Assembly: GCF_024298765.1 (NCBI RefSeq)
Contig: NZ_CP101210.1
Source: Escherichia coli
GTDB taxonomy: Bacteria > Pseudomonadota > Gammaproteobacteria > Enterobacterales > Enterobacteriaceae
Length of the DNA: 64,000 bases
Reading direction: 5' to 3' (one strand)
Shown in pieces: positions 35,279 to 45,953 of this stretch; positions within the stretch are counted from its first letter, which is position 1, and the number at the start of each line of letters is the position of its first letter. The notes below the pieces were generated by a model. The model searched no databases, had not been told where the DNA came from, and saw only the letters and a list, made by a program, of their open reading frames with translations. Position numbers and translations under genes: made by a program.

Positions 35279-36352
35279 ATGACAGAGAAAAGAAGAACCC
35301 GCTGGCAGCGGCGGCCAGGCACGACGGGCGGCAAATTACCGTGGAATGACTGGCGCAATGCCACGACCTGGCGTAAAGCGACGCAATTATTACTGTTGGC
35401 AATGAATATTTATATTGCCATCACGTTCTGGTATTGGGTGCGCTATTACGAAACGGCAGGTAGTACGACATTTGTCACCAGACCGGGAGGTATCGAAGGC
35501 TGGCTACCGATTGCCGGTCTGATGAATCTGAAATATAGCCTTGCAACAGGCCAGTTACCGTCCGTCCACGCCGCCGCGATGCTGTTATTGGTCGCTTTTA
35601 TCGTCATCAGTCTATTATTAAAAAAGGCCTTTTGTTCATGGTTATGCCCGGTTGGTACGCTTTCTGAATTAATCGGCGATCTCGGTAACAAACTGTTTGG
35701 TCGGCAATTTGTCCTTCCCCGCTGGCTGGATACTCCTCTGCGCGGCGTGAAGTATTTGCTGTTGAGTTTTTTTCTTTATATTGCGTTATTGATGCCCGCT
35801 CAGGCGATTCACTATTTTATGTTGTCGCCCTACAGCGTGGTGATGGACGTTAAAATGCTCGATTTCTTTCGTCATATGGGGACCGCGACATTAATCAGCG
35901 TGACCGTTTTGCTGATTGCCAGCCTGTTTATTCGCCATGCCTGGTGTCGTTATCTTTGCCCATATGGCGCGCTGATGGGCGTGGTTTCGCTATTATCGCC
36001 GTTTAAGATTCGTCGCAATGCCGAAAGTTGTATCGACTGTGGCAAATGCGCAAAAAGTTGCCCATCACGGATCCCGGTCGATAAATTAATTCAGGTACGA
36101 AGCGTGGAATGTACCGGCTGTATGACTTGCGTAGAGTCATGTCCGGTAGCCTCAACATTGACCTTTTCACTGCAAAAACCTGCGGCAAATAAAAAAGCCT
36201 TTGCGTTGTCTGGCTGGTTAATGACGCTACTGGTTCTGGGGATTATGTTTGCGGTGATTGGTTACGCAATGTATGCGGGAGTATGGCAAAGCCCGGTGCC
36301 GGAGGAATTGTACCAACGCTTAATTCCGCAATCGCCAATGATTGGGCACTAA
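35279..36352 (+). CDS. yccM: YccM, polytopic membrane 4Fe-4S ferredoxin-type protein
   Basis: 357-aa ORF with CxxCxxC motifs (CIDCGKCAKSCP, CTGCMTCVESCP) and several transmembrane segments. Confidence 0.9.
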   Translation: MTEKRRTRWQRRPGTTGGKLPWNDWRNATTWRKATQLLLLAMNIYIAITFWYWVRYYETAGSTTFVTRPGGIEGWLPIAGLMNLKYSLATGQLPSVHAAAMLLLVAFIVISLLLKKAFCSWLCPVGTLSELIGDLGNKLFGRQFVLPRWLDTPLRGVKYLLLSFFLYIALLMPAQAIHYFMLSPYSVVMDVKMLDFFRHMGTATLISVTVLLIASLFIRHAWCRYLCPYGALMGVVSLLSPFKIRRNAESCIDCGKCAKSCPSRIPVDKLIQVRSVECTGCMTCVESCPVASTLTFSLQKPAANKKAFALSGWLMTLLVLGIMFAVIGYAMYAGVWQSPVPEELYQRLIPQSPMIGH

Positions 36353-36400
36353 ATTAGCAACAAGCGGAACATCACCTCGCACGGGGTGATGTTCACAAAA

Positions 36401-36574
36401 TCACATTATTTTGATTTTGACATCATAACTTTCAAGCCCGGTCATTTTTTCTCGTGCGGTGAAGCGAATTTCAGAGACTTCTTTCCCTGTATTCTTGTTC
36501 AGCTCGGCGATTTTTTGCGCGATAAAGTCGGCGATTTCCGTTTCGGCTTGTTTTTTTAACTCTTCAATATTCAC
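36401..36574 (-). CDS. gnsA: GnsA, small protein (overexpression suppresses secG/fabA defects); GTG start
   Basis: Minus-strand translation (M)NIEELKKQAETEIADFIAQKIAELNKNTGKEVSEIRFTAREKMTGLESYDVKIKIM, 57 aa; below the ORF-track size cut-off. Confidence 0.8.
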   Translation of the reverse strand: MNIEELKKQAETEIADFIAQKIAELNKNTGKEVSEIRFTAREKMTGLESYDVKIKIM

Positions 36575-36794
36575 TGTTAACCTCTTCTGGTCTTAAAAGA
36601 CAGCAACACGCCAGTAAGGTGTTGGTTCCCGGTACCCTGGTCAGGTAAGAAATGTTATAAGCCATCTCCCCGAAAGATTCAATAATCAACAGGTTATCGC
36701 TTACTATACATACAGCGTTGAAGAAAAATAAGGCAGATATAAAAAAGGCTCCACGAGGGAGCCTGATATTATTTTGTGAAATCCAGCGGCGCAT
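36564..36794 (-). CDS. ymcE: YmcE, small cold-shock-associated membrane protein
   Basis: 76-aa product MRRWISQNNIRLPRGAFFISALFFFNAVCIVSDNLLIIESFGEMAYNISY...; 3' end overlaps the gnsA start by 11 nt. Confidence 0.8.
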   Translation of the reverse strand: MRRWISQNNIRLPRGAFFISALFFFNAVCIVSDNLLIIESFGEMAYNISYLTRVPGTNTLLACCCLLRPEEVNSEY

Positions 36795-36967
36795 GGTCAG
36801 TGCGTATTTGCAGCGCGACGTTATCAAAGGTGATCATCGTCGATTTACAAAAAATACACTTAGCGCCCAAAGGGTTTCGCTCCGTCACATCGAATGCCGA
36901 TGTGCGGTACTGTGAACCATGACAACATGGACAGCGGAAATGGAGATGTTGAGTAATAACGGCAACC

Positions 36968-37180
36968 TTAGAGCGTAACAACGTTCGCTGCCGCGGGGCC
37001 ACGTTGCCCCTGCTCAATAGAAAATTCAACTTTCTGATTTTCGTTCAGTGTGCGGAATTCATTGCTCTGAATGGCGGTGAAATGGACGAAAACGTCTTTG
37101 CTGCCATCATCAGGAGTGATAAAGCCAAAACCTTTATCTGCGTTAAACCATTTTACTAAACCAGTCATTTTATTAGACAT
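36968..37180 (-). CDS. cspG: CspG, cold-shock protein (CspA family)
   Basis: 70-aa [56 protein letters not shown]... Confidence 0.95.
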
Positions 37181-37465
37181 ATTTTACTTCCTTCATTTTG
37201 GGCCTTTCGGCAAACAGGGCTTTAATACAGAAACTACTTAGTGTTCAGGAGAGAGACTCAAAAGAAGGGGATAATGCCTGATAATGAGAACTGCTTTAGT
37301 AAACTACTTTGTATGCTGTCTGTCTTTCAAACCGACGCAGCTATTAACGCATGATAATTGAGATTAAGCAAATTTTATTTTAGCCGTCCGGCGGTCTTAA
37401 ATATCGCTGGCTTTATTTTATTAACCCCGTATAGTGCAGCGCAGTATTTTCAGTAAGGAATTTGT

Positions 37466-37678
37466 TTGTCCCGTAAAATGACAGGAATTGTCAAAACCTT
37501 TGATCGCAAAAGCGGCAAAGGATTCATTATCCCCTCCGACGGTCGTAAAGAAGTCCAGGTCCATATTTCCGCATTCACTCCCCGCGACGCAGAAGTGCTT
37601 ATACCAGGATTACGCGTGGAATTTTGCCGCGTAAATGGCCTGCGAGGACCAACAGCGGCAAATGTATATCTCTCTTAA
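37466..37678 (+). CDS. cspH: CspH, CspA-family paralogue; TTG start
   Basis: 70-aa [56 protein letters not shown]...; divergent from cspG. Confidence 0.9.
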
Positions 37679-38118
37679 TATGAGTTGCTTGTTTAAAGCT
37701 GACTGGTTTTATTGGAATAGCTCAATAGTCAACACTACACATTATAACGCAAGTTACTTTTTCACAAAGAAACTAATCCATTTAAGCGAATATCTCTGCA
37801 CCTAATAGTTATAAATGCCACTTAACAGCCAGTTATAGTACCACATGAAACTATATTACCAACAATAGTTAATAGCTTTCTTAACAATTTTCTTATCTTT
37901 AATTTGTATTTTGCTAAGATTTATCTTATGCTCACAAGTCGTATTTCCAGAGGGGAATAGTTAACAATCTTATATTTCCCTCTGCGCGCCTTTCCCACCC
38001 GCAGTATATAGTGCTGGCGGTATGAGGAAAGGGAGATTTCACAAGGATGTTATACTCAAAGTAGATAATCCTGATCTCAAGCGTACGTATTGTCCATGCG
38101 ATGAATAAAGGAAAAGTT

Positions 38119-38424
38119 ATGAAACACAAGCTTTCTGCAATCCTTATGGCCTTCATGTTGACGACGCCAGCTGCATTTGCTGCCCCTGAAGCAGCAAACG
38201 GGACCGAGGCAACGACGGGTACTACTGGCACCACAACGACCACTACAGGTGCAACCACGACTGCTGCTACCACTGGTGGCGTGGCTGCTGGCGCTGTCGG
38301 CACGGCGACGGTTGTCGGTGTGGCAACGGCTGTTGGTGTGGCGACGTTGGCAGTTGTTGCAGCAAATGACAGTGGCGATGGCGGTTCTCATAACACCTCA
38401 ACCACCACGTCCACTACACGCTAA
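38119..38424 (+). CDS. gfcA: GfcA, threonine-rich small exported protein; first gene of the group 4 capsule (gfc) operon
   Basis: 101-aa product MKHKLSAILMAFMLTTPAAFA + Thr/Gly/Ala/Val low-complexity region; AAGGAAAAG SD upstream. Confidence 0.88.
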   Translation: MKHKLSAILMAFMLTTPAAFAAPEAANGTEATTGTTGTTTTTTGATTTAATTGGVAAGAVGTATVVGVATAVGVATLAVVAANDSGDGGSHNTSTTTSTTR

Positions 38425-38530
38425 TACTGCTTTAACGCGTCGAAATTAAAGTTAAATGATACCCGGTTGCGATATTCGTACCGGGCTTTAGAGATTTGCA
38501 TTTTTTTAATTAACCTTTCAAGGATTAAAG

Positions 38531-39175
38531 GTGCGCCCTCTTATTTTATCGATTTTCGCACTATTTCTTGCGGGATGTACACACAGCCAGCAAAGTATGG
38601 TCGATACATTTCGCGCCAGCCTTTTCGATAATCAGGATATCACCGTAGCGGATCAGCAGATCCAGGCGTTGCCTTATTCCACGATGTATTTACGCCTTAA
38701 TGAAGGGCAACGAATCTTTGTGGTACTGGGATATATAGAACAAGAACAAAGCAAATGGTTATCCCAGGATAACGCCATGCTGGTTACCCACAATGGACGT
38801 CTTTTAAAGACCGTCAAACTTAATAATAATCTGCTGGAAGTGACAAATTCCGGGCAGGACCCTCTGCGTAACGCGCTGGCAATAAAAGACGGCAGCCGTT
38901 GGACGCGCGATATTCTCTGGAGTGAAGACAACCATTTTCGCTCTGCGACCCTGAGTTCCACTTTTTCCTTTGCTGGATTAGAGACGCTGAATATTGCGGG
39001 TCGCGATGTGCTGTGTAATGTCTGGCAGGAAGAGGTGACTTCCACGCTGCCAGAAAAACAGTGGCAAAACACATTCTGGGTCGATTCGGCTACTGGCCAG
39101 GTTCGTCAAAGTCGGCAAATGTTAGGCGCAGGGGTTATTCCCGTAGAAATGACGTTTCTTAAACCCGCACCATGA
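38531..39175 (+). CDS. gfcB: GfcB, lipoprotein (YmcC family); GTG start
   Basis: 214-aa ORF MRPLILSIFALFLAGCTHSQ (lipobox LAGC). Confidence 0.9.
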   Translation: MRPLILSIFALFLAGCTHSQQSMVDTFRASLFDNQDITVADQQIQALPYSTMYLRLNEGQRIFVVLGYIEQEQSKWLSQDNAMLVTHNGRLLKTVKLNNNLLEVTNSGQDPLRNALAIKDGSRWTRDILWSEDNHFRSATLSSTFSFAGLETLNIAGRDVLCNVWQEEVTSTLPEKQWQNTFWVDSATGQVRQSRQMLGAGVIPVEMTFLKPAP

Positions 39176-39918
39176 ATAAATTACAGTCGTATTTCATTGC
39201 CAGCGTACTTTACGTAATGACACCCCATGCCTTTGCGCAAGGAACGGTGACTATTTATCTGCCTGGCGAACAACAGACACTTTCCGTTGGCCCCGTGGAA
39301 AATGTTGTCCAGTTGGTGACACAACCGCAACTGCGCGATCGCCTCTGGTGGCCTGGTGCCTTGCTGACCGACTCTGCGGCGAAAGCTAAAGCGCTTAAAG
39401 ACTACCAACATGTCATGGCACAGCTTGCTTCCTGGGAAGCAGAAGCTGACGACGATGTGGTGGCAACGATTAAATCCGTGCGCCAGCAGTTACTCAATCT
39501 CAAAATCACTGGTCGCTTACCGGTCAAACTGGACCCTGATTTTGTACGAGTGGATGAGAACAGCAATCCCCCGCTGGTCGGGGACTATACGCTCTATACC
39601 GTACAGCGTCCGGTGACTATTACTCTGCTGGGTGCGGTTTCTGGGACTGGGCAATTGCCCTGGCAGGCAGGCCGTAGCGTTACCGATTATCTGCAAGATC
39701 ACCCCCGCCTTGCAGGCGCGGACAAGAATAACGTTATGGTGATTACGCCTGAGGGTGAGACTGTCGTCGCCCCTGTTGCCCTGTGGAATAAAAGACATGT
39801 GGAACCACCGCCTGGCAGCCAGCTTTGGTTGGGCTTTTCTGCGCATGTACTGCCCGAAAAATATGCTGATTTAAATGACCAGATTGTGTCTGTTTTAACG
39901 CAACGTGTTCCTGACTGA
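39172..39918 (+). CDS. gfcC: GfcC, periplasmic capsule-assembly protein
   Basis: 248-aa [38 protein letters not shown]...; overlaps the gfcB stop. Confidence 0.92.
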
Positions 39919-42014
39919 TGAAGAAGAACTCTTATCTTTTAAGCTGCCTGGCCATTGCCGTCTCCAGTGCCTGTCATGCTGAAGTATTAACCTATCCGGA
40001 TCCGCTGGGTTCGTCGCAATCAGACTTTGGCGGCACAGGATTGTTGCAGATGCCAAATGCGCGCATCGCACCGGAAGGTGAATTCAGCGTAAACTACCGG
40101 GATAACGATCAATACCGTTTCTACTCCACCTCCGTGGCGCTGTTCCCATGGCTGGAAGGCACCATTCGTTATACGGATGTGCGCACACGCAAATATAGCC
40201 AGTGGGAAGATTTCAGCGGCGATCAGTCATACAAAGACAAATCTTTCGATTTTAAACTTCGCCTGTGGGAAGAAGGTTACTGGCTACCGCAAGTGGCATT
40301 TGGTAAACGTGATATTGCTGGTACGGGTCTGTTCGACGGTGAATATCTGGTCGCCAGCAAGCAAGCGGGCCCGTTCGATTTCACCCTCGGGATGGCCTGG
40401 GGCTACGCCGGTAATGCGGGCAATATTACCAACCCGTTTTGTCGGGTAAGCGATAAATATTGCCATCGCGCAGAGTCTCACGATGCGGGAGATATCAGCT
40501 TTAGCGATATCTTTCGTGGTCCAGCCTCTATTTTTGGCGGTATTGAGTATCAAACGCCGTGGAATCCTCTGCGTCTGAAACTCGAATACGATGGCAACAA
40601 TTACCAGAATGATTTCGCTGGCAAACTGCCTCAGGCAAGCCATTTCAACGTCGGCGCAGTCTATCGCGCTGCCAGCTGGGCAGATCTCAACCTGAGTTAT
40701 GAACGCGGTAACACGTTGATGTTTGGCTTCACGTTACGGACCAATTTCAACGATCTGCGCCCTGCCCTGCGCGATACGCCAAAACCGGCATATCAACCTG
40801 CGCCGGAATCTGAAGGATTGCAGTACACCACGGTAGCAAACCAACTTACCGCCCTGAAGTATAACGCGGGCTTTGACGCGCCAGAAATTCAGCTACGCGA
40901 TAAGACGCTGTATATGTCTGGTCAGCAATACAAATACCGTGACTCTCGCGAAGCGGTCGATCGTGCCAACCGGATTCTGGTGAATAACCTGCCGCAAGGC
41001 GTTGAGAAGATTAGCGTGACGCAAAAGCGCGAGCATATGGCGATGGTGACTACCGAAACCGACGTAGCCAGCCTGCGCAAACAACTGGCCGGTACAGCGC
41101 CTGGTCAATCAGAGCCACTGCAACAACAACGTGTTGAAGCTGAAGATCTTTCTGCCTTTGGTCGGGGCTACCGTATTCGTGAAGATCGCTTTAGCTACTC
41201 TTTCAACCCAACACTTTCACAGTCGCTGGGCGGCCCGGAAGATTTCTATATGTTCCAGTTAGGGCTGATGTCCAGCGCCCGCTACTGGTTTACCGACCAC
41301 CTGCTGCTTGATGGCGGTATTTTCACCAATATTTACAATAACTACGACAAGTTTAAGTCTTCGCTATTACCCGCGGACTCTACCCTGCCCCGCGTGCGCA
41401 CGCATATCCGTGATTACGTTCGCAATGACGTCTATCTCAACAACTTGCAAGCGAACTACTTTGCCGACTTAGGCAACGGTTTCTATGGCCAGGTGTATGG
41501 CGGTTATCTGGAAACGATGTATGCCGGTGTCGGTTCCGAGCTGCTTTATCGCCCGCTAGATGCCAGCTGGGCGCTGGGTGTGGACGTTAACTACGTGAAG
41601 CAGCGTGACTGGGACAACATGATGCGCTTCACCGATTATTCCACGCCAACAGGTTTCGTGACGGCTTACTGGAACCCGCCGACGCTCAATGGCGTACTGA
41701 TGAAACTTAGCGTTGGGCAATATCTGGCAAAAGATAAAGGTGCAACGATCGACGTCGCCAAACGCTTTGACAGCGGCGTGGCAGTAGGGGTATGGGCGGC
41801 AATCAGTAACGTATCAAAAGATGACTACGGCGAAGGCGGCTTTAGTAAAGGTTTTTATATCTCGATTCCGTTCGACTTGATGACCATTGGACCTAACCGC
41901 AACCGCGCGGTGGTTTCGTGGACACCATTGACGCGTGATGGTGGACAAATGCTGTCACGTAAATACCAGCTCTATCCAATGACGGCAGAGCGAGAAGTAC
42001 CGGTTGGACAATAA
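39918..42014 (+). CDS. gfcD: GfcD, outer-membrane beta-barrel lipoprotein (YjbH family)
   Basis: 698-aa [27 protein letters not shown]... Confidence 0.92.
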
Positions 42015-42059
42015 CCTGACGTAATTCATAACATTACATTGACTGATAAATATAAACCA

Positions 42060-43199
42060 ATGAAAAAGAACATTTTTAAGTTTTCGGTACTGACATTGGC
42101 TGTTCTGTCTTTGACAGCATGTACCCTTGTTCCTGGTCAGAATTTATCGACCAGTAACAAGGATGTCATTGAACTACCTGACAATCAGTATGACCTGGAC
42201 AAAATGGTCAATATCTATCCCGTCACGCCAGGATTGATTGATCAGCTGCGCGCCAAACCGATTATGTCGCAGGCTAATCCGGAGCTGGAGCAGCAAATCG
42301 CGAACTATGAATATCGTATCGGCATTGGGGATGTGTTGATGGTTACGGTCTGGGATCACCCGGAACTAACCACACCCGCAGGGCAATATCGTAGCGCCAG
42401 TGATACCGGCAACTGGGTTAACGCTGATGGTGCAATTTTCTACCCTTATATTGGCCGCCTGAAAGTGGCCGGGAAAACGCTTACCCAGGTACGCAACGAG
42501 ATTACAGCGCGTCTGGATTCAGTCATTGAAAGCCCGCAGGTCGATGTCAGCGTCGCGGCGTTCCGATCGCAAAAAGCGTACGTCACCGGCGAAGTCAGCA
42601 AATCGGGTCAGCAGCCGATTACCAATATTCCTCTGACCATCATGGATGCGATTAACGCCGCGGGCGGTCTGACCGCAGATGCAGACTGGCGCAACGTGGT
42701 GCTCACCCAGAATGGCGTAAAGACCAAAGTGAACCTCTATGCGCTGATGCAGCGTGGCGACTTGCGCCAGAACAAACTGCTGCACCCGGGCGATATTTTA
42801 TTTATTCCGCGCAACGATGATCTGAAAGTCTTCGTGATGGGTGAAGTGGGTAAACAGAGCACGCTGAAAATGGACCGCAGCGGTATGACCCTGGCGGAAG
42901 CGCTGGGTAACGCTGAGGGTATGAATCAGGATGTCGCTGATGCGACGGGGATTTTTGTTATTCGTGCAACGCAAAACAAGCAGAATGGCAAAATCGCCAA
43001 TATTTATCAGCTGAATGCGAAGGACGCATCGGCAATGATACTCGGAACGGAATTCCAGCTTGAACCTTACGACATTGTTTATGTCACTACCGCGCCGCTG
43101 GCTCGTTGGAACCGTGTGATTTCTCTGCTGGTACCGACGATTTCCGGGGTGCACGACCTGACAGAGACTTCACGGTGGATTCAAACATGGCCCAACTAA
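42060..43199 (+). CDS. gfcE: GfcE, Wza-like outer-membrane polysaccharide export lipoprotein
   Basis: 379-aa product [29 protein letters not shown]...; ORF track begins 7 codons upstream. Confidence 0.92.
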
Positions 43200-43633
43200 A
43201 ATTTAACTCAATCCTGGTGGTTTGTACCGGCAACATTTGCCGTTCGCCCATTGGCGAGCGCTTGCTGCGTAAACGTCTGCCAGGCGTAAAAGTCAAATCG
43301 GCAGGTGTTCATGGTCTGGTAAAACACCCTGCAGATGCGACAGCAGCAGATGTTGCCGCAAATCATGGCGTATCTCTTGAAGGACATGCCGGACGTAAGC
43401 TCACTGCTGAGATGGCACGAAATTACGATCTGATTCTGGCAATGGAGTCGGAACATATTGCTCAGGTTACCGCAATCGCTCCCGAGGTCCGCGGGAAGAC
43501 AATGCTGTTTGGGCAATGGCTGGAACAGAAAGAGATCCCGGATCCCTATCGTAAAAGTCAGGACGCATTTGAACATGTCTACGGTATGTTGGAGCGCGCC
43601 AGTCAGGAATGGGCGAAGCGCCTCAGCCGGTAA
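43187..43633 (+). CDS. etp: Etp, low-molecular-weight protein-tyrosine phosphatase
   Basis: 148-aa product [27 protein letters not shown] (CX5R P-loop); start overlaps the gfcE 3' end. Confidence 0.92.
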
Positions 43634-43652
43634 TTTGAGTTTATAAAATACG

Positions 43653-45833
43653 ATGACAACTAAAAATATGAATACGCCACCAGGCAGCACTCAGGAAAAT
43701 GAGATCGATCTGCTTCGTCTGGTCGGCGAGTTATGGGATCACCGTAAGTTTATTGTCAGCGTGACTGCGTTATTCACGCTGATCGCTGTCGCTTACTCGC
43801 TGTTAAGCACACCAATTTATCAGGCAGATACTCTGGTCCAGGTTGAGCAGAAACAGGGCAACGCCATTCTCAGCGGCCTGAGCGATATGATCCCTAACTC
43901 ATCGCCCGAGTCTGCACCGGAGATACAACTGCTGCAATCGCGCATGATTCTCGGTAAAACCATTGCTGAACTGAATCTGCGCGACATGGTTGAGCAGAAG
44001 TATTTTCCGATTGTGGGTCGCGGCTGGGCGAGATTAACCAAAGAGAAACCTGGTGAGCTGGCGATCAGCTGGATGCATATTCCACAACTGAATGGTCAGG
44101 ATCAGCAACTGACACTCACGGTTGGGGAAAACGGCCACTATACGCTGGAAGGTGAAGAGTTCACCGTCAATGGTATGGTCGGTCAGCGTCTGGAAAAAGA
44201 TGGCGTTGCGCTGACTATCGCGGACATTAAGGCCAAACCAGGAACACAGTTTGTCCTGAGCCAGCGTACCGAACTGGAAGCGATTAACGCGTTGCAGGAA
44301 ACCTTTACCGTTAGCGAACGCAGTAAAGAAAGCGGGATGCTGGAACTTACCATGACCGGTGATGATCCCCAGTTGATTACCCGTATTCTGAACAGCATCG
44401 CTAACAACTATTTGCAACAGAATATCGCTCGCCAGGCGGCGCAGGATTCACAAAGCCTTGAATTCTTACAGCGCCAGTTGCCTGAAGTGCGCAGCGAGCT
44501 GGACCAGGCGGAAGAAAAACTCAACGTTTATCGCCAGCAGCGCGATTCGGTTGACCTTAACCTGGAAGCCAAAGCCGTTCTTGAGCAGATTGTTAACGTT
44601 GATAATCAACTCAATGAGCTGACCTTCCGCGAGGCAGAGATCTCCCAGCTGTATAAGAAAGATCACCCAACTTATCGTGCGCTGCTGGAAAAACGCCAGA
44701 CGCTGGAGCAAGAACGCAAACGCCTGAATAAGCGGGTATCGGCAATGCCTTCCACCCAACAGGAAGTATTGCGTTTAAGCCGTGACGTAGAAGCGGGCCG
44801 TGCGGTATATCTGCAATTACTTAACCGCCAGCAGGAGTTGAGTATTTCGAAATCCAGTGCGATTGGTAACGTGCGGATTATCGACCCGGCAGTCACTCAG
44901 CCGCAGCCAGTGAAACCGAAAAAAGCGTTGAATGTGGTGCTTGGTTTTATTCTTGGCCTGTTTATTTCGGTGGGTGCCGTGCTGGCGCGTGCGATGTTGC
45001 GTCGTGGTGTAGAAGCACCAGAACAACTGGAAGAGCACGGCATCAGCGTTTATGCCACTATCCCGATGTCCGAGTGGCTGGATAAGCGTACCCGTCTGCG
45101 TAAGAAAAATTTATTTTCTAATCAGCAGCGCCATCGTACTAAAAATATCCCCTTCCTGGCGGTGGATAACCCGGCAGATTCTGCTGTGGAAGCCGTACGT
45201 GCGCTACGAACCAGTCTGCACTTCGCTATGATGGAGACAGAGAATAACATTCTGATGATCACCGGTGCGACGCCAGACAGTGGTAAAACGTTCGTCAGTT
45301 CAACTCTGGCGGCGGTGATCGCCCAGTCCGATCAAAAAGTGTTATTTATTGATGCCGACTTACGTCGTGGTTATTCGCATAACCTGTTTACCGTGAGTAA
45401 TGAACATGGCTTGTCGGAATATCTGGCAGGGAAAGATGAGCTCAACAAAGTGATCCAGCATTTTGGCAAAGGAGGCTTTGATGTGATTACTCGCGGTCAG
45501 GTGCCACCTAACCCGTCTGAACTGCTGATGCGCGATCGGATGCGTCAATTACTGGAATGGGCGAACGACCATTACGATCTGGTGATTGTCGATACGCCGC
45601 CGATGCTGGCGGTGAGCGATGCTGCGGTCGTGGGGCGCTCTGTCGGCACCAGCCTGCTGGTTGCGCGTTTTGGCCTGAACACCGCCAAAGAGGTGAGCTT
45701 GTCAATGCAGCGTCTGGAACAGGCTGGCGTTAATATTAAAGGCGCAATCCTCAATGGTGTGATTAAACGCGCCAGCACCGCTTACAGTTACGGCTATAAC
45801 TATTACGGTTATAGTTACTCCGAGAAAGAGTAA
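43653..45833 (+). CDS. etk: Etk, BY-kinase (Wzc-like tyrosine autokinase)
   Basis: 726-aa ORF with Walker A GATPDSGKTF and C-terminal tyrosine cluster YSYGYNYYGYSYSEKE. Confidence 0.95.
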   Translation: MTTKNMNTPPGSTQENEIDLLRLVGELWDHRKFIVSVTALFTLIAVAYSLLSTPIYQADTLVQVEQKQGNAILSGLSDMIPNSSPESAPEIQLLQSRMILGKTIAELNLRDMVEQKYFPIVGRGWARLTKEKPGELAISWMHIPQLNGQDQQLTLTVGENGHYTLEGEEFTVNGMVGQRLEKDGVALTIADIKAKPGTQFVLSQRTELEAINALQETFTVSERSKESGMLELTMTGDDPQLITRILNSIANNYLQQNIARQAAQDSQSLEFLQRQLPEVRSELDQAEEKLNVYRQQRDSVDLNLEAKAVLEQIVNVDNQLNELTFREAEISQLYKKDHPTYRALLEKRQTLEQERKRLNKRVSAMPSTQQEVLRLSRDVEAGRAVYLQLLNRQQELSISKSSAIGNVRIIDPAVTQPQPVKPKKALNVVLGFILGLFISVGAVLARAMLRRGVEAPEQLEEHGISVYATIPMSEWLDKRTRLRKKNLFSNQQRHRTKNIPFLAVDNPADSAVEAVRALRTSLHFAMMETENNILMITGATPDSGKTFVSSTLAAVIAQSDQKVLFIDADLRRGYSHNLFTVSNEHGLSEYLAGKDELNKVIQHFGKGGFDVITRGQVPPNPSELLMRDRMRQLLEWANDHYDLVIVDTPPMLAVSDAAVVGRSVGTSLLVARFGLNTAKEVSLSMQRLEQAGVNIKGAILNGVIKRASTAYSYGYNYYGYSYSEKE

Positions 45834-45849
45834 AACTGAAGGTAAGGTG

Positions 45850-45883
45850 GCCGGATGCGGCGTGAACGCCTTTTCCGGCCTAC
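45850..45883. repeat. REP element
   Basis: GCCGGATGCGGCGTGAACGCCTTTTCCGGCCTAC between etk and appA. Confidence 0.75.
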
Positions 45884-45953
45884 GCATCAGACAGTTCTTC
45901 GTTTGTCATCAGCTTCAGAGCATTCAGGTAACTGAATGCTCTTTTTTTATGCA

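What the first reader, a model, noticed from the sequence alone, without database searches (positions are those of the whole stretch)
37679..38118. gfc operon upstream region is uninterrupted
In K-12 an IS1 copy sits between cspH and gfcA and is reported to silence the group 4 capsule operon. Here the cspH-gfcA interval is 440 bp with no IS, followed by intact gfcABCDE-etp-etk, so this strain may be able to express the gfc operon.
Basis: established knowledge. Interest (0 to 1): 0.3.

Follow-up and report, generated by a model that had tools for sequence, protein, structure and literature searches.

The report
Uninterrupted wild-type gfc capsule promoter region
The stretch between cspH and gfcA is the normal, insertion-free regulatory region of the E. 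coli group 4 (O-antigen) capsule export operon, as in most wild E. coli, so the strain has the genetic capacity that K-12 lost, but this is ordinary and already known.

Summary
cspH ends at 37678 and gfcA starts at 38119. The 440 bp between them contain no IS1 sequence, nor does the rest of the 64-kb window. gfcABCDE-etp-etk (38119-45833) is intact, 0-7 amino-acid changes per protein from the experimentally functional EPEC E2348/69 operon, and ends at a clean intrinsic terminator. In K-12, IS1D sits at window 38086-38094, 24 nt upstream of the gfcA ATG.

This is the common state. Of 5,426 complete E. coli genomes, about 3,068 have the interval uninterrupted, 416 carry the K-12 IS1 junction (the rows inspected were mostly laboratory derivatives), about 233 have other disruptions, and about 1,683 lack the operon. 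The window allele is 100% identical to at least 59 genomes, many of them avian isolates.

EHEC also has an uninterrupted interval yet makes about 30-fold less gfcA mRNA than EPEC, and capsule also needs an O-antigen locus outside the window.

One unexplained feature remains. The gfcA-proximal 239 bp are better conserved in E. albertii than the flanking genes. They fold strongly as RNA (z = -5) and hold a 28-codon upstream ORF. Neither the structure nor the ORF is confirmed. Novelty: already known.

The parts
37466..37678 (+). cspH (cold-shock-like protein, 70 aa, TTG start); left boundary of the interval
   Evidence: tblastn with the K-12 CspH protein, 100% over 70 aa; annotated identically in relatives
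37679..38118 (+). cspH-gfcA intergenic interval, 440 bp, 35% G+C, with no insertion sequence
37679..37879 (+). Distal, fast-evolving half of the interval (59.9% identical to E. albertii)
37880..38118 (+). Proximal conserved block, inferred to hold the native gfc promoter and 5' leader. It is 88.7% identical to E. albertii, more than the cspH (87.3%) or gfcA (78.4%) coding sequences, and differs from EPEC E2348/69 at 2 positions
37904..37932 (+). Best sigma-70-like site, TTGTAT-17-TATGCT (candidate gfc promoter; inferred and weak)
   Evidence: Top-scoring site in a weight-matrix scan, but no better than shuffled sequence. It is nearly invariant in E. albertii, and BL21(DE3) has a 23-bp deletion (window 37917-37939) that removes its -10-like hexamer
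37948..37984 (+). Predicted hairpin 1 of the putative leader (12-bp stem)
   Evidence: Inverted repeat, 92% complementary; part of the minimum-free-energy fold; two G-U to A-U changes are consistent with pairing, with no compensatory change
37989..38078 (+). Predicted hairpins 2 and 3 of the putative leader
   Evidence: 37938-38130 folds at -59.8 kcal/mol, z = -5.0 against 200 shuffles. RNAalifold finds only 1 compensatory pair, so the structure is unconfirmed
38022..38108 (+). 28-codon upstream ORF (MRKGRFHKDVILKVDNPDLKRTYCPCDE) whose stop codon is followed directly by the gfcA Shine-Dalgarno sequence; status uncertain
   Evidence: Read from the sequence. It is intact in E. albertii, where 5 of 6 nucleotide changes are synonymous by my reading of the alignment (one search shows 27 of 28 residues kept). 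In Escherichia sp. MOD1-EC7003 the start is lost and there is an internal stop. It has no good SD of its own
38086..38094 (.). CGTATTGTC, the site where K-12 carries IS1D (present once here, duplicated as the 9-bp target repeat in K-12); 24 nt upstream of the gfcA ATG
   Evidence: blastn of the window against K-12 and reconstruction of the empty site
38119..38424 (+). gfcA (threonine-rich inner-membrane protein, 101 aa)
   Evidence: 98% to K-12; 2 aa differences from EPEC
38531..39175 (+). gfcB (lipoprotein, 214 aa, GTG start)
   Evidence: Pfam YjbF PF11102, 232 bits; identical to the EPEC protein
39172..39918 (+). gfcC (248 aa)
   Evidence: Pfam GfcC N- and C-terminal domains; 7 aa differences from EPEC
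39918..42014 (+). gfcD (outer-membrane YjbH-family protein, 698 aa)
   Evidence: Pfam YjbH PF06082, 899 bits; 4 aa differences from EPEC
42060..43199 (+). gfcE (Wza-like polysaccharide export protein, 379 aa)
   Evidence: NCBIfam NF011658, 703 bits against a cut-off of 333; identical to the EPEC protein
43187..43633 (+). etp (low-molecular-weight phosphotyrosine phosphatase, 148 aa)
   Evidence: NCBIfam equivalog NF008486, 334 bits against a cut-off of 247; identical to the EPEC protein
43653..45833 (+). etk (BY-type tyrosine kinase, 726 aa)
   Evidence: NCBIfam equivalog NF007350, 1595 bits against a cut-off of 1248; 4 aa differences from EPEC
45917..45949 (+). Intrinsic terminator after etk (11-bp stem followed by T7); end of the operon

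Best explanation
Window 37679-38118 is the ancestral, uninterrupted regulatory region of the group 4 capsule export operon gfcABCDE-etp-etk. Its gfcA-proximal ~240 bp carry the native promoter and a long conserved 5' leader (inferred from conservation). Because this region is contiguous with the gfcA ribosome-binding site, transcripts started there can run through all seven intact genes to the terminator after etk. In K-12, a 768-bp IS1 sits 24 nt upstream of the gfcA ATG with its insA reading away from gfcA. That insertion separates the whole promoter/leader from the operon (shown). It is expected to block read-through because IS1 is polar in both orientations (established knowledge, not tested here). 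The window therefore shows the normal wild-type allele and has the genetic capacity for regulated gfc expression. Whether a capsule is actually made depends on regulators and on a Wzy-dependent O-antigen locus that lies outside the window.
For: Exact coordinates and absence of IS1. Position of K-12 IS1D and its 9-bp duplication. All seven genes intact, with 0-7 aa differences from the functional EPEC E2348/69 proteins. Family HMMs above the curated cut-offs. Terminator after etk. Interval 96.6% identical to EPEC, with only 2 differences in the proximal 239 bp. Proximal block more conserved in E. albertii than the flanking coding sequences. Population frequencies among 5,426 complete genomes (3,068 uninterrupted, 416 with the K-12 junction, about 1,683 lacking the operon). 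Window allele 100% identical in at least 59 genomes. Window 99.994% identical to an APEC O78:H4 chromosome over 63 kb. Literature: IS1 lies in the K-12 ymc/gfc promoter but not in pathogenic strains (PMC2516531, PMC12428005); the gfc genes are on one mRNA and are required for capsule in EPEC (PMC8592465); O78 septicaemic strains depend on a group 4 capsule (PMC4313913, PMC12846712).
Against: No transcription start site is known to me for this region. The best sigma-70-like site is weak and scores no better than shuffled sequence, so the promoter position is inferred from conservation only. An intact interval does not ensure expression: EHEC O157:H7 has one but about 30-fold less gfcA mRNA than EPEC (PMC3853201). 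A strong Rho-dependent terminator zone is reported at gfcA in K-12 (PMC9160355). The O-antigen locus and any trans-acting regulators are not in the window. The key primary papers (Peleg 2005, Shifrin 2008, Wiebe 2015) could not be read.
Confidence: 0.9

Rival explanations
1. The interval and operon are intact but effectively cryptic in this lineage. Transcription would be kept very low by repression (for example H-NS on the 30-35% G+C spacer, or YjjQ) or by Rho-dependent termination, as in EHEC, so the absence of IS1 has no phenotypic consequence.
For: EHEC has an uninterrupted interval yet about 30-fold lower gfcA mRNA and no visible capsule (PMC3853201). The spacer is AT-rich, at 30-33% G+C over 37700-37999. 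No strong consensus promoter is present. A Rho terminator zone is reported at gfcA (PMC9160355). YjjQ is listed as a regulator of capsule formation (PMC5210515). That YjjQ represses gfc specifically is from my memory of the Wiebe 2015 abstract, which I could not read.
Against: The proximal 239 bp are 99.2% identical to the expressing EPEC strain, closer than to O157. All seven genes are kept intact with few substitutions, which argues for continued selection. O78 avian and septicaemic strains are reported to need the group 4 capsule (PMC4313913, PMC12846712).
Confidence: 0.2
2. Control of the operon lies mainly in a structured 5' leader RNA, possibly with a translated 28-codon upstream ORF, within 37938-38118 rather than at the promoter. 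The K-12 IS1 would then destroy this leader as well as displacing the promoter.
For: 37938-38130 folds at -59.8 kcal/mol, z = -5.0, with 0 of 200 shuffles as stable. The last 78 bp are 94.9% identical in E. albertii, above the coding flanks. The uORF is retained in E. albertii with 5 of 6 nucleotide changes synonymous. The uORF stop codon is followed directly by the gfcA SD.
Against: Covariation is uninformative: 1 compensatory pair, several broken pairs, covariation term +0.81. No Rfam family matches. The uORF has no usable SD, its ATG lies inside a predicted stem, and it is disrupted in Escherichia sp. MOD1-EC7003. No transcription start is known, so it is not shown that the region is transcribed as a leader. 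High conservation could equally reflect protein-binding sites on the DNA.
Confidence: 0.2
3. The interval only appears intact. An IS was once present and left by excision or recombination, leaving a small lesion that inactivates the promoter.
For: Small lesions do occur at this locus in other strains: a 23-bp deletion in BL21(DE3), and an IS1-associated deletion of 37921-38404 in strain 2024CK-00474.
Against: The window interval is colinear with EPEC, O157 and the reconstructed K-12 empty site except for one 1-bp indel at its cspH end. It shows no duplicated 9-bp target and no IS remnant.
Confidence: 0.02

Closest known systems
gfc (ymc) operon and its upstream region in EPEC O127:H6 E2348/69, the reference group 4 capsule system
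   Same: Same position between cspH and appA and the same seven genes in the same order. The upstream interval is 441 bp and 96.6% identical, with 2 differences in the proximal 239 bp. GfcB, GfcE and Etp are identical, and the other proteins differ by 2-7 aa.
   Different: There are 15 differences in the interval, 13 of them in the distal, non-conserved half. The genetic background differs (the window matches avian/O78:H4-type chromosomes). Expression and capsule formation have been shown for EPEC but not for this sequence.
E. coli K-12 MG1655 gfc locus with IS1D
   Same: Same genes, 98-100% identical at protein level. Once IS1D and one target repeat are removed, the interval is 95% identical.
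   Different: K-12 has a 768-bp IS1D flanked by the 9-bp duplication CGTATTGTC, 24 nt upstream of the gfcA ATG (33 bp counting the duplicated target), with insA oriented away from gfcA. The window has a single copy of that 9-mer and no IS.
EHEC O157:H7 gfc locus
   Same: Uninterrupted 441-bp interval and an identical GfcA protein (WP_001299283.1).
   Different: The interval is 94.1% identical. It includes changes in predicted hairpin 2. EHEC is reported to express gfcA about 30-fold less than EPEC (PMC3853201).
gfc-less E. coli genomes (about 31% of complete genomes)
   Same: The same cspG-cspH and appA flanks.
   Different: The interval and the whole operon (about 8.3 kb) are absent. cspH and appA converge and overlap by 13 bp.
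Paralogous systems yjbEFGH and wza-wzb-wzc (colanic acid / group 1 capsule export)
   Same: GfcB, GfcC and GfcD belong to the YjbF, GfcC and YjbH families. GfcE, Etp and Etk score second-best to the Wza, Wzb and Wzc models.
   Different: Different loci and regulation. Etp and Etk score above the cut-offs of their own equivalog models, not the Wzb and Wzc ones.

Membership tests
E. coli group 4 capsule (gfc) export operon | Seven genes gfcA-gfcB-gfcC-gfcD-gfcE-etp-etk, co-directional and tightly spaced | tested here: met
   All seven found in order at 38119-45833, with gaps of -13 to +106 bp
E. coli group 4 capsule (gfc) export operon | Proteins belong to the YjbF, GfcC, YjbH, Wza-like OPX, LMW-PTP (Etp) and BY-kinase (Etk) families | tested here: met
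   Pfam PF11102, PF20616 + PF06251 and PF06082; NCBIfam NF011658, NF008486 and NF007350. All score above the curated cut-offs. GfcA has no HMM but is 98% identical to K-12 GfcA
E. coli group 4 capsule (gfc) export operon | Open reading frames intact (no frameshift, stop codon or IS) | tested here: met
   Full-length colinear translations with 0-7 aa differences from EPEC; no IS1 in the window
E. coli group 4 capsule (gfc) export operon | Chromosomal position between cspH and appA | tested here: met
   cspH at 37466-37678 and appA on the minus strand from 45954
E. coli group 4 capsule (gfc) export operon | Transcribed as one mRNA from a promoter upstream of gfcA | not testable with these tools
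   Reported for EPEC (PMC8592465, citing Peleg 2005). Here there is only a weak candidate promoter and a terminator after etk
E. coli group 4 capsule (gfc) export operon | Produces an O-antigen capsule, which requires a Wzy-dependent O-antigen locus | not testable with these tools
   The O-antigen locus is outside the window, and phenotype cannot be read from sequence
K-12-type IS1-interrupted gfc allele | IS1 terminal inverted repeats or IS1 body between cspH and gfcA | tested here: not met
   0 matches to IRL or IRR at up to 3 mismatches; no IS1 similarity by blastn
K-12-type IS1-interrupted gfc allele | Duplicated 9-bp target CGTATTGTC flanking the insertion | tested here: not met
   A single copy at 38086-38094; the empty site aligns colinearly with K-12 minus IS1
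Known cis-regulatory RNA family (Rfam) in the gfcA leader | Match to a curated covariance model | tested here: not met
   No hit in 37679-38118 at E <= 1. The only hits nearby are the cspA thermoregulator on cspG and a sub-threshold STnc220 match

The most novel reading that the evidence does not exclude
The gfcA-proximal ~180-240 bp (about 37880-38118) may be an uncharacterised cis-regulatory leader of the group 4 capsule operon. It could be a structured 5' UTR, with or without the translated 28-codon upstream ORF (38022-38108) whose stop codon is followed directly by the gfcA ribosome-binding site. K-12-centred studies would have missed it because the K-12 IS1 cuts through it.
Probability: 0.2. 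Interest if true: 0.4.

Novelty: already known. Interest (0 to 1): 0.08.

Why it matters
It matters little beyond correct annotation. The IS1 in K-12 is a peculiarity of a lineage dominated here by laboratory strains, and the uninterrupted interval seen in the window is the normal E. coli state, present in about 87% of genomes that have the locus. For this strain it means the group 4 capsule export machinery and its native control region are genetically complete. That is relevant because O-antigen capsules contribute to serum and antimicrobial-peptide resistance in EPEC and in avian and septicaemic O78 strains (PMC3853201, PMC4313913, PMC12846712). Two leads are worth modest follow-up. The first is the unusually conserved, strongly folding leader upstream of gfcA, whose regulation is essentially undescribed. 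The second is the repeated, independent IS1 hits in this 440-bp spacer in unrelated strains, which suggest recurrent loss of capsule expression.

Tried and rejected
1. IS1 remnants. I searched for IRL and IRR and ran whole-IS1 blastn and found nothing.

2. Consensus promoter scans. The tool scan found no plus-strand promoter in 37200-38600. My own weight-matrix scan gave TTGTAT-17-TATGCT as the best site, but 91% of shuffles score as well, so the promoter is not identifiable from consensus alone.

3. Rfam search of 36000-39500 at E <= 1 gave no family in the interval.

4. Covariation test of the predicted leader structure on six alleles, including E. albertii and a cryptic Escherichia clade. 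The sequences are too conserved to decide: 1 compensatory pair and a covariation term of +0.81.

5. Repeated motif AATAGTYWA. It occurs three times in the window, all inside the interval, against 0.056 expected in local shuffles. I defined it post hoc, and two of the three copies are not conserved in E. albertii, so I do not treat it as a binding site.

6. Exact look-up of the 28-aa uORF peptide and its E. albertii variant in the 15-billion-protein collection. Neither is present. This is uninformative, probably because gene callers skip ORFs this short.

7. Search for more distant gfc loci with GfcB in one-genome-per-species contigs. Only 5 loci were returned, and the Cedecea, Citrobacter and MAG loci share no upstream nucleotide similarity and no uORF homologue.

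8. The primary papers Peleg 2005, Shifrin 2008 and Wiebe 2015 are not held. What I say about YjjQ repressing gfc rests on my memory of the abstract and on the EcoCyc summary line (PMC5210515).

9. NCBIfam has no models for GfcA-D, so I used Pfam instead.

Full report
**Observation.** The coordinates are exact. cspH (70 aa, TTG start, 100% identical to the K-12 protein) occupies 37466-37678. gfcA (101 aa) begins at the ATG at 38119, preceded by an AAGGA Shine-Dalgarno sequence. The interval 37679-38118 is therefore 440 bp. Neither IS1 terminal repeat (IRL GGTGATGCTGCCAACTTACTGAT, IRR GGTAATGACTCCAACTTATTGAT) occurs anywhere in the 64-kb window at up to 3 mismatches. blastn of the full K-12 IS1D against the window returns only chance matches.

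**Downstream genes.** The seven genes are gfcA 38119-38424, gfcB 38531-39175, gfcC 39172-39918, gfcD 39918-42014, gfcE 42060-43199, etp 43187-43633 and etk 43653-45833.
- All are full length and 98-100% identical to the K-12 proteins.
- They differ from the proteins of the experimentally characterised EPEC O127:H6 E2348/69 operon by 2, 0, 7, 4, 0, 0 and 4 residues respectively.
- Family models score far above their curated cut-offs.
- An 11-bp-stem/T7 intrinsic terminator at 45917-45942 closes the operon before the convergent appA.

**What K-12 looks like.** In MG1655, IS1D (768 bp) lies between gfcA and cspH. Aligning the window to K-12 shows that the insertion duplicated the 9-mer CGTATTGTC, which is present once in the window at 38086-38094, 24 nt upstream of the gfcA ATG. 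Removing IS1D and one repeat restores a 441-bp interval that is 95% identical to the window. The IRL end, and hence the insA promoter pointing away, abuts gfcA. The whole native upstream region is therefore displaced by 777 bp. Transcripts from it would have to cross IS1 antisense. IS1 is classically polar in both orientations; that is established knowledge, not tested here. [quoted passage not shown] It also notes that etk-dependent phenotypes exist in K-12, so silencing is not absolute (PMC2516531; also PMC12428005).

**How common the uninterrupted state is.** I searched 5,426 complete E. coli genomes.
- 5,400 genomes contain cspH, and 3,535 contain the cspH-gfcA segment.
- 3,717 match the interval, and 3,068 of those match it as one uninterrupted piece.
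- 416 carry the exact K-12 IS1D/gfcA junction; most of the rows inspected are K-12 laboratory derivatives.
- About 233 have other partial or interrupted states.
- About 1,683 have cspH but neither the interval nor gfcA. In these, cspH and appA converge and overlap by 13 bp, so about 8.3 kb are missing.

The window allele is 100% identical over cspH-gfcA in at least 59 genomes, many from poultry. The window is 99.994% identical over 63 kb to APEC O78:H4 strain E12049. So the finding describes the ordinary wild-type configuration. These counts come from an unrepresentative set of genomes in which K-12 derivatives are over-sampled. The 80%-coverage criterion would also miss insertions in the outer ~100 bp of the query.

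**Anatomy of the interval.** It is AT-rich, at 30-33% G+C over 37700-37999, and falls into two parts. Against E. albertii (found via GfcB), the distal half 37679-37879 is 59.9% identical. The proximal 239 bp (37880-38118) are 88.7% identical, above the cspH (87.3%) and gfcA (78.4%) coding sequences, and the last 78 bp reach 94.9%. The window differs from EPEC at only two positions (37881 and 38018) in this proximal block.

There is no strong consensus promoter. The best site, TTGTAT-17-TATGCT at 37904-37932, scores no better than shuffled sequence. It does lie in a nearly invariant stretch, and BL21(DE3) carries a 23-bp deletion that removes its -10-like hexamer.

If transcription starts near 37940, the leader would be about 180 nt. 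That segment (37938-38130) folds at -59.8 kcal/mol, z = -5.0, with none of 200 shuffles as stable. The fold contains hairpins at 37948-37984, 37989-32 and 38033-38078. The available alleles are too similar for covariation to decide: 1 compensatory pair, some broken pairs, covariation term +0.81. No Rfam family matches.

The block also contains a 28-codon ORF (38022-38108) whose stop codon is followed directly by the gfcA SD. E. albertii keeps it with 5 of 6 nucleotide changes synonymous. It lacks a usable SD of its own, and it is broken in Escherichia sp. MOD1-EC7003. I treat the leader and the uORF as unproven.

**Interpretation.** The control region is contiguous and almost identical to that of EPEC, where the seven genes lie on one mRNA and are required for the O-antigen capsule (PMC8592465, PMC3853201). 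O78 avian and septicaemic strains are reported to depend on a group 4 capsule (PMC4313913, PMC12846712).

Capacity is not expression, for three reasons.
- EHEC has an equally uninterrupted interval yet about 30-fold less gfcA mRNA and no visible capsule (PMC3853201).
- A strong Rho-dependent terminator zone is reported at gfcA (PMC9160355).
- Capsule formation needs an O-antigen locus that is not in the window.

**Comparison and novelty.** The locus meets every sequence-testable criterion for the gfc operon and fails every criterion for the K-12-type IS1 allele. The K-12 versus pathogen difference was already noted in the literature (PMC2516531, which attributes it to its reference 18). The finding is therefore already known and ordinary. 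Two things remain of some interest. One is the undescribed, highly conserved and strongly folding region immediately upstream of gfcA. The other is the repeated IS1 targeting of this spacer in unrelated strains.

Noticed in passing
window 37679-38118 (compared with L001-L005): The spacer is a recurrent IS1 target, with at least five independent events involving different IS1 variants and orientations. These are K-12 (target 38086-38094), strain 22AR0750 (37821-37830, flanks 100% identical to the window), E2386 (37917-37925), LR-25 (37982-37991), and 2024CK-00474 (IS1 plus deletion of 37921-38404, removing gfcA). In E2386 and 2024CK-00474, gfcD is also annotated as frameshifted. This suggests repeated loss of capsule expression.
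   Followed up: partly
window 37880-38118: The gfcA-proximal 239 bp are better conserved in E. albertii (88.7%; last 78 bp 94.9%) than the flanking coding sequences. 37938-38130 folds as RNA with z = -5.0. There is no Rfam match, and covariation is uninformative.
   Followed up: partly
window 38022-38108 (+): A 28-codon upstream ORF (MRKGRFHKDVILKVDNPDLKRTYCPCDE) ends 10 nt before the gfcA ATG. It is conserved with mostly synonymous changes in E. albertii but disrupted in Escherichia sp. MOD1-EC7003. The K-12 IS1D insertion would truncate it.
   Followed up: partly
window 37917-37939 (versus L008, BL21(DE3)): BL21(DE3) and a similar strain have a 23-bp deletion in the most conserved promoter-like stretch. 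It removes the -10-like hexamer of the best sigma-70-like site.
   Followed up: no
window 37679-45950 (versus L017): About 31% of complete E. coli genomes lack the whole interval plus gfc operon (about 8.3 kb). In them, cspH and appA converge and overlap by 13 bp, and appA is slightly longer.
   Followed up: partly
window 37724, 37864, 37956 (+): The motif AATAGTYWA occurs three times in the 64-kb window, all inside the 440-bp interval, with a near-copy at 37804. The motif was defined post hoc and is poorly conserved in E. albertii.
   Followed up: partly
window 36914-37336 (-): The cspG 5' UTR matches the Rfam cspA thermoregulator (RF01766, 162.8 bits against a gathering score of 78). A sub-threshold STnc220-like hit lies at 36731-36811 (-), under ymcE/ymcF.
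   Followed up: no
window 614-1108 and about 1100-3150: tRNA-Ser(GGA) at 614-701 is followed by a 181-bp x 2.4 tandem duplication (683-1108) that includes the tRNA 3' end. In the near-identical APEC genome this is followed by an IS3-family element and a DUF2726 gene, which looks like the scar of an integrated element. The window and strain E12049 differ only in this first ~1 kb.
   Followed up: no
window 25894-26237: A 101-bp x 3.4 tandem array of REP/BIME-like units lies between cbpM and torD.
   Followed up: no
window ~24408-24509 (by position in L010): Between agp and cbpA, where K-12 has yccE by my recollection of its gene order, the near-identical APEC genome annotates only a ~100-bp pseudogene fragment.
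   Followed up: no
window 38425-38530: The 106-bp gfcA-gfcB spacer contains a GC-rich hairpin (ACCCGGT...ACCGGG) without a proper T-tract. It is 96% and 83% conserved in the cryptic clade and E. albertii respectively. It could be an attenuator or an mRNA-stabilising element.
   Followed up: no
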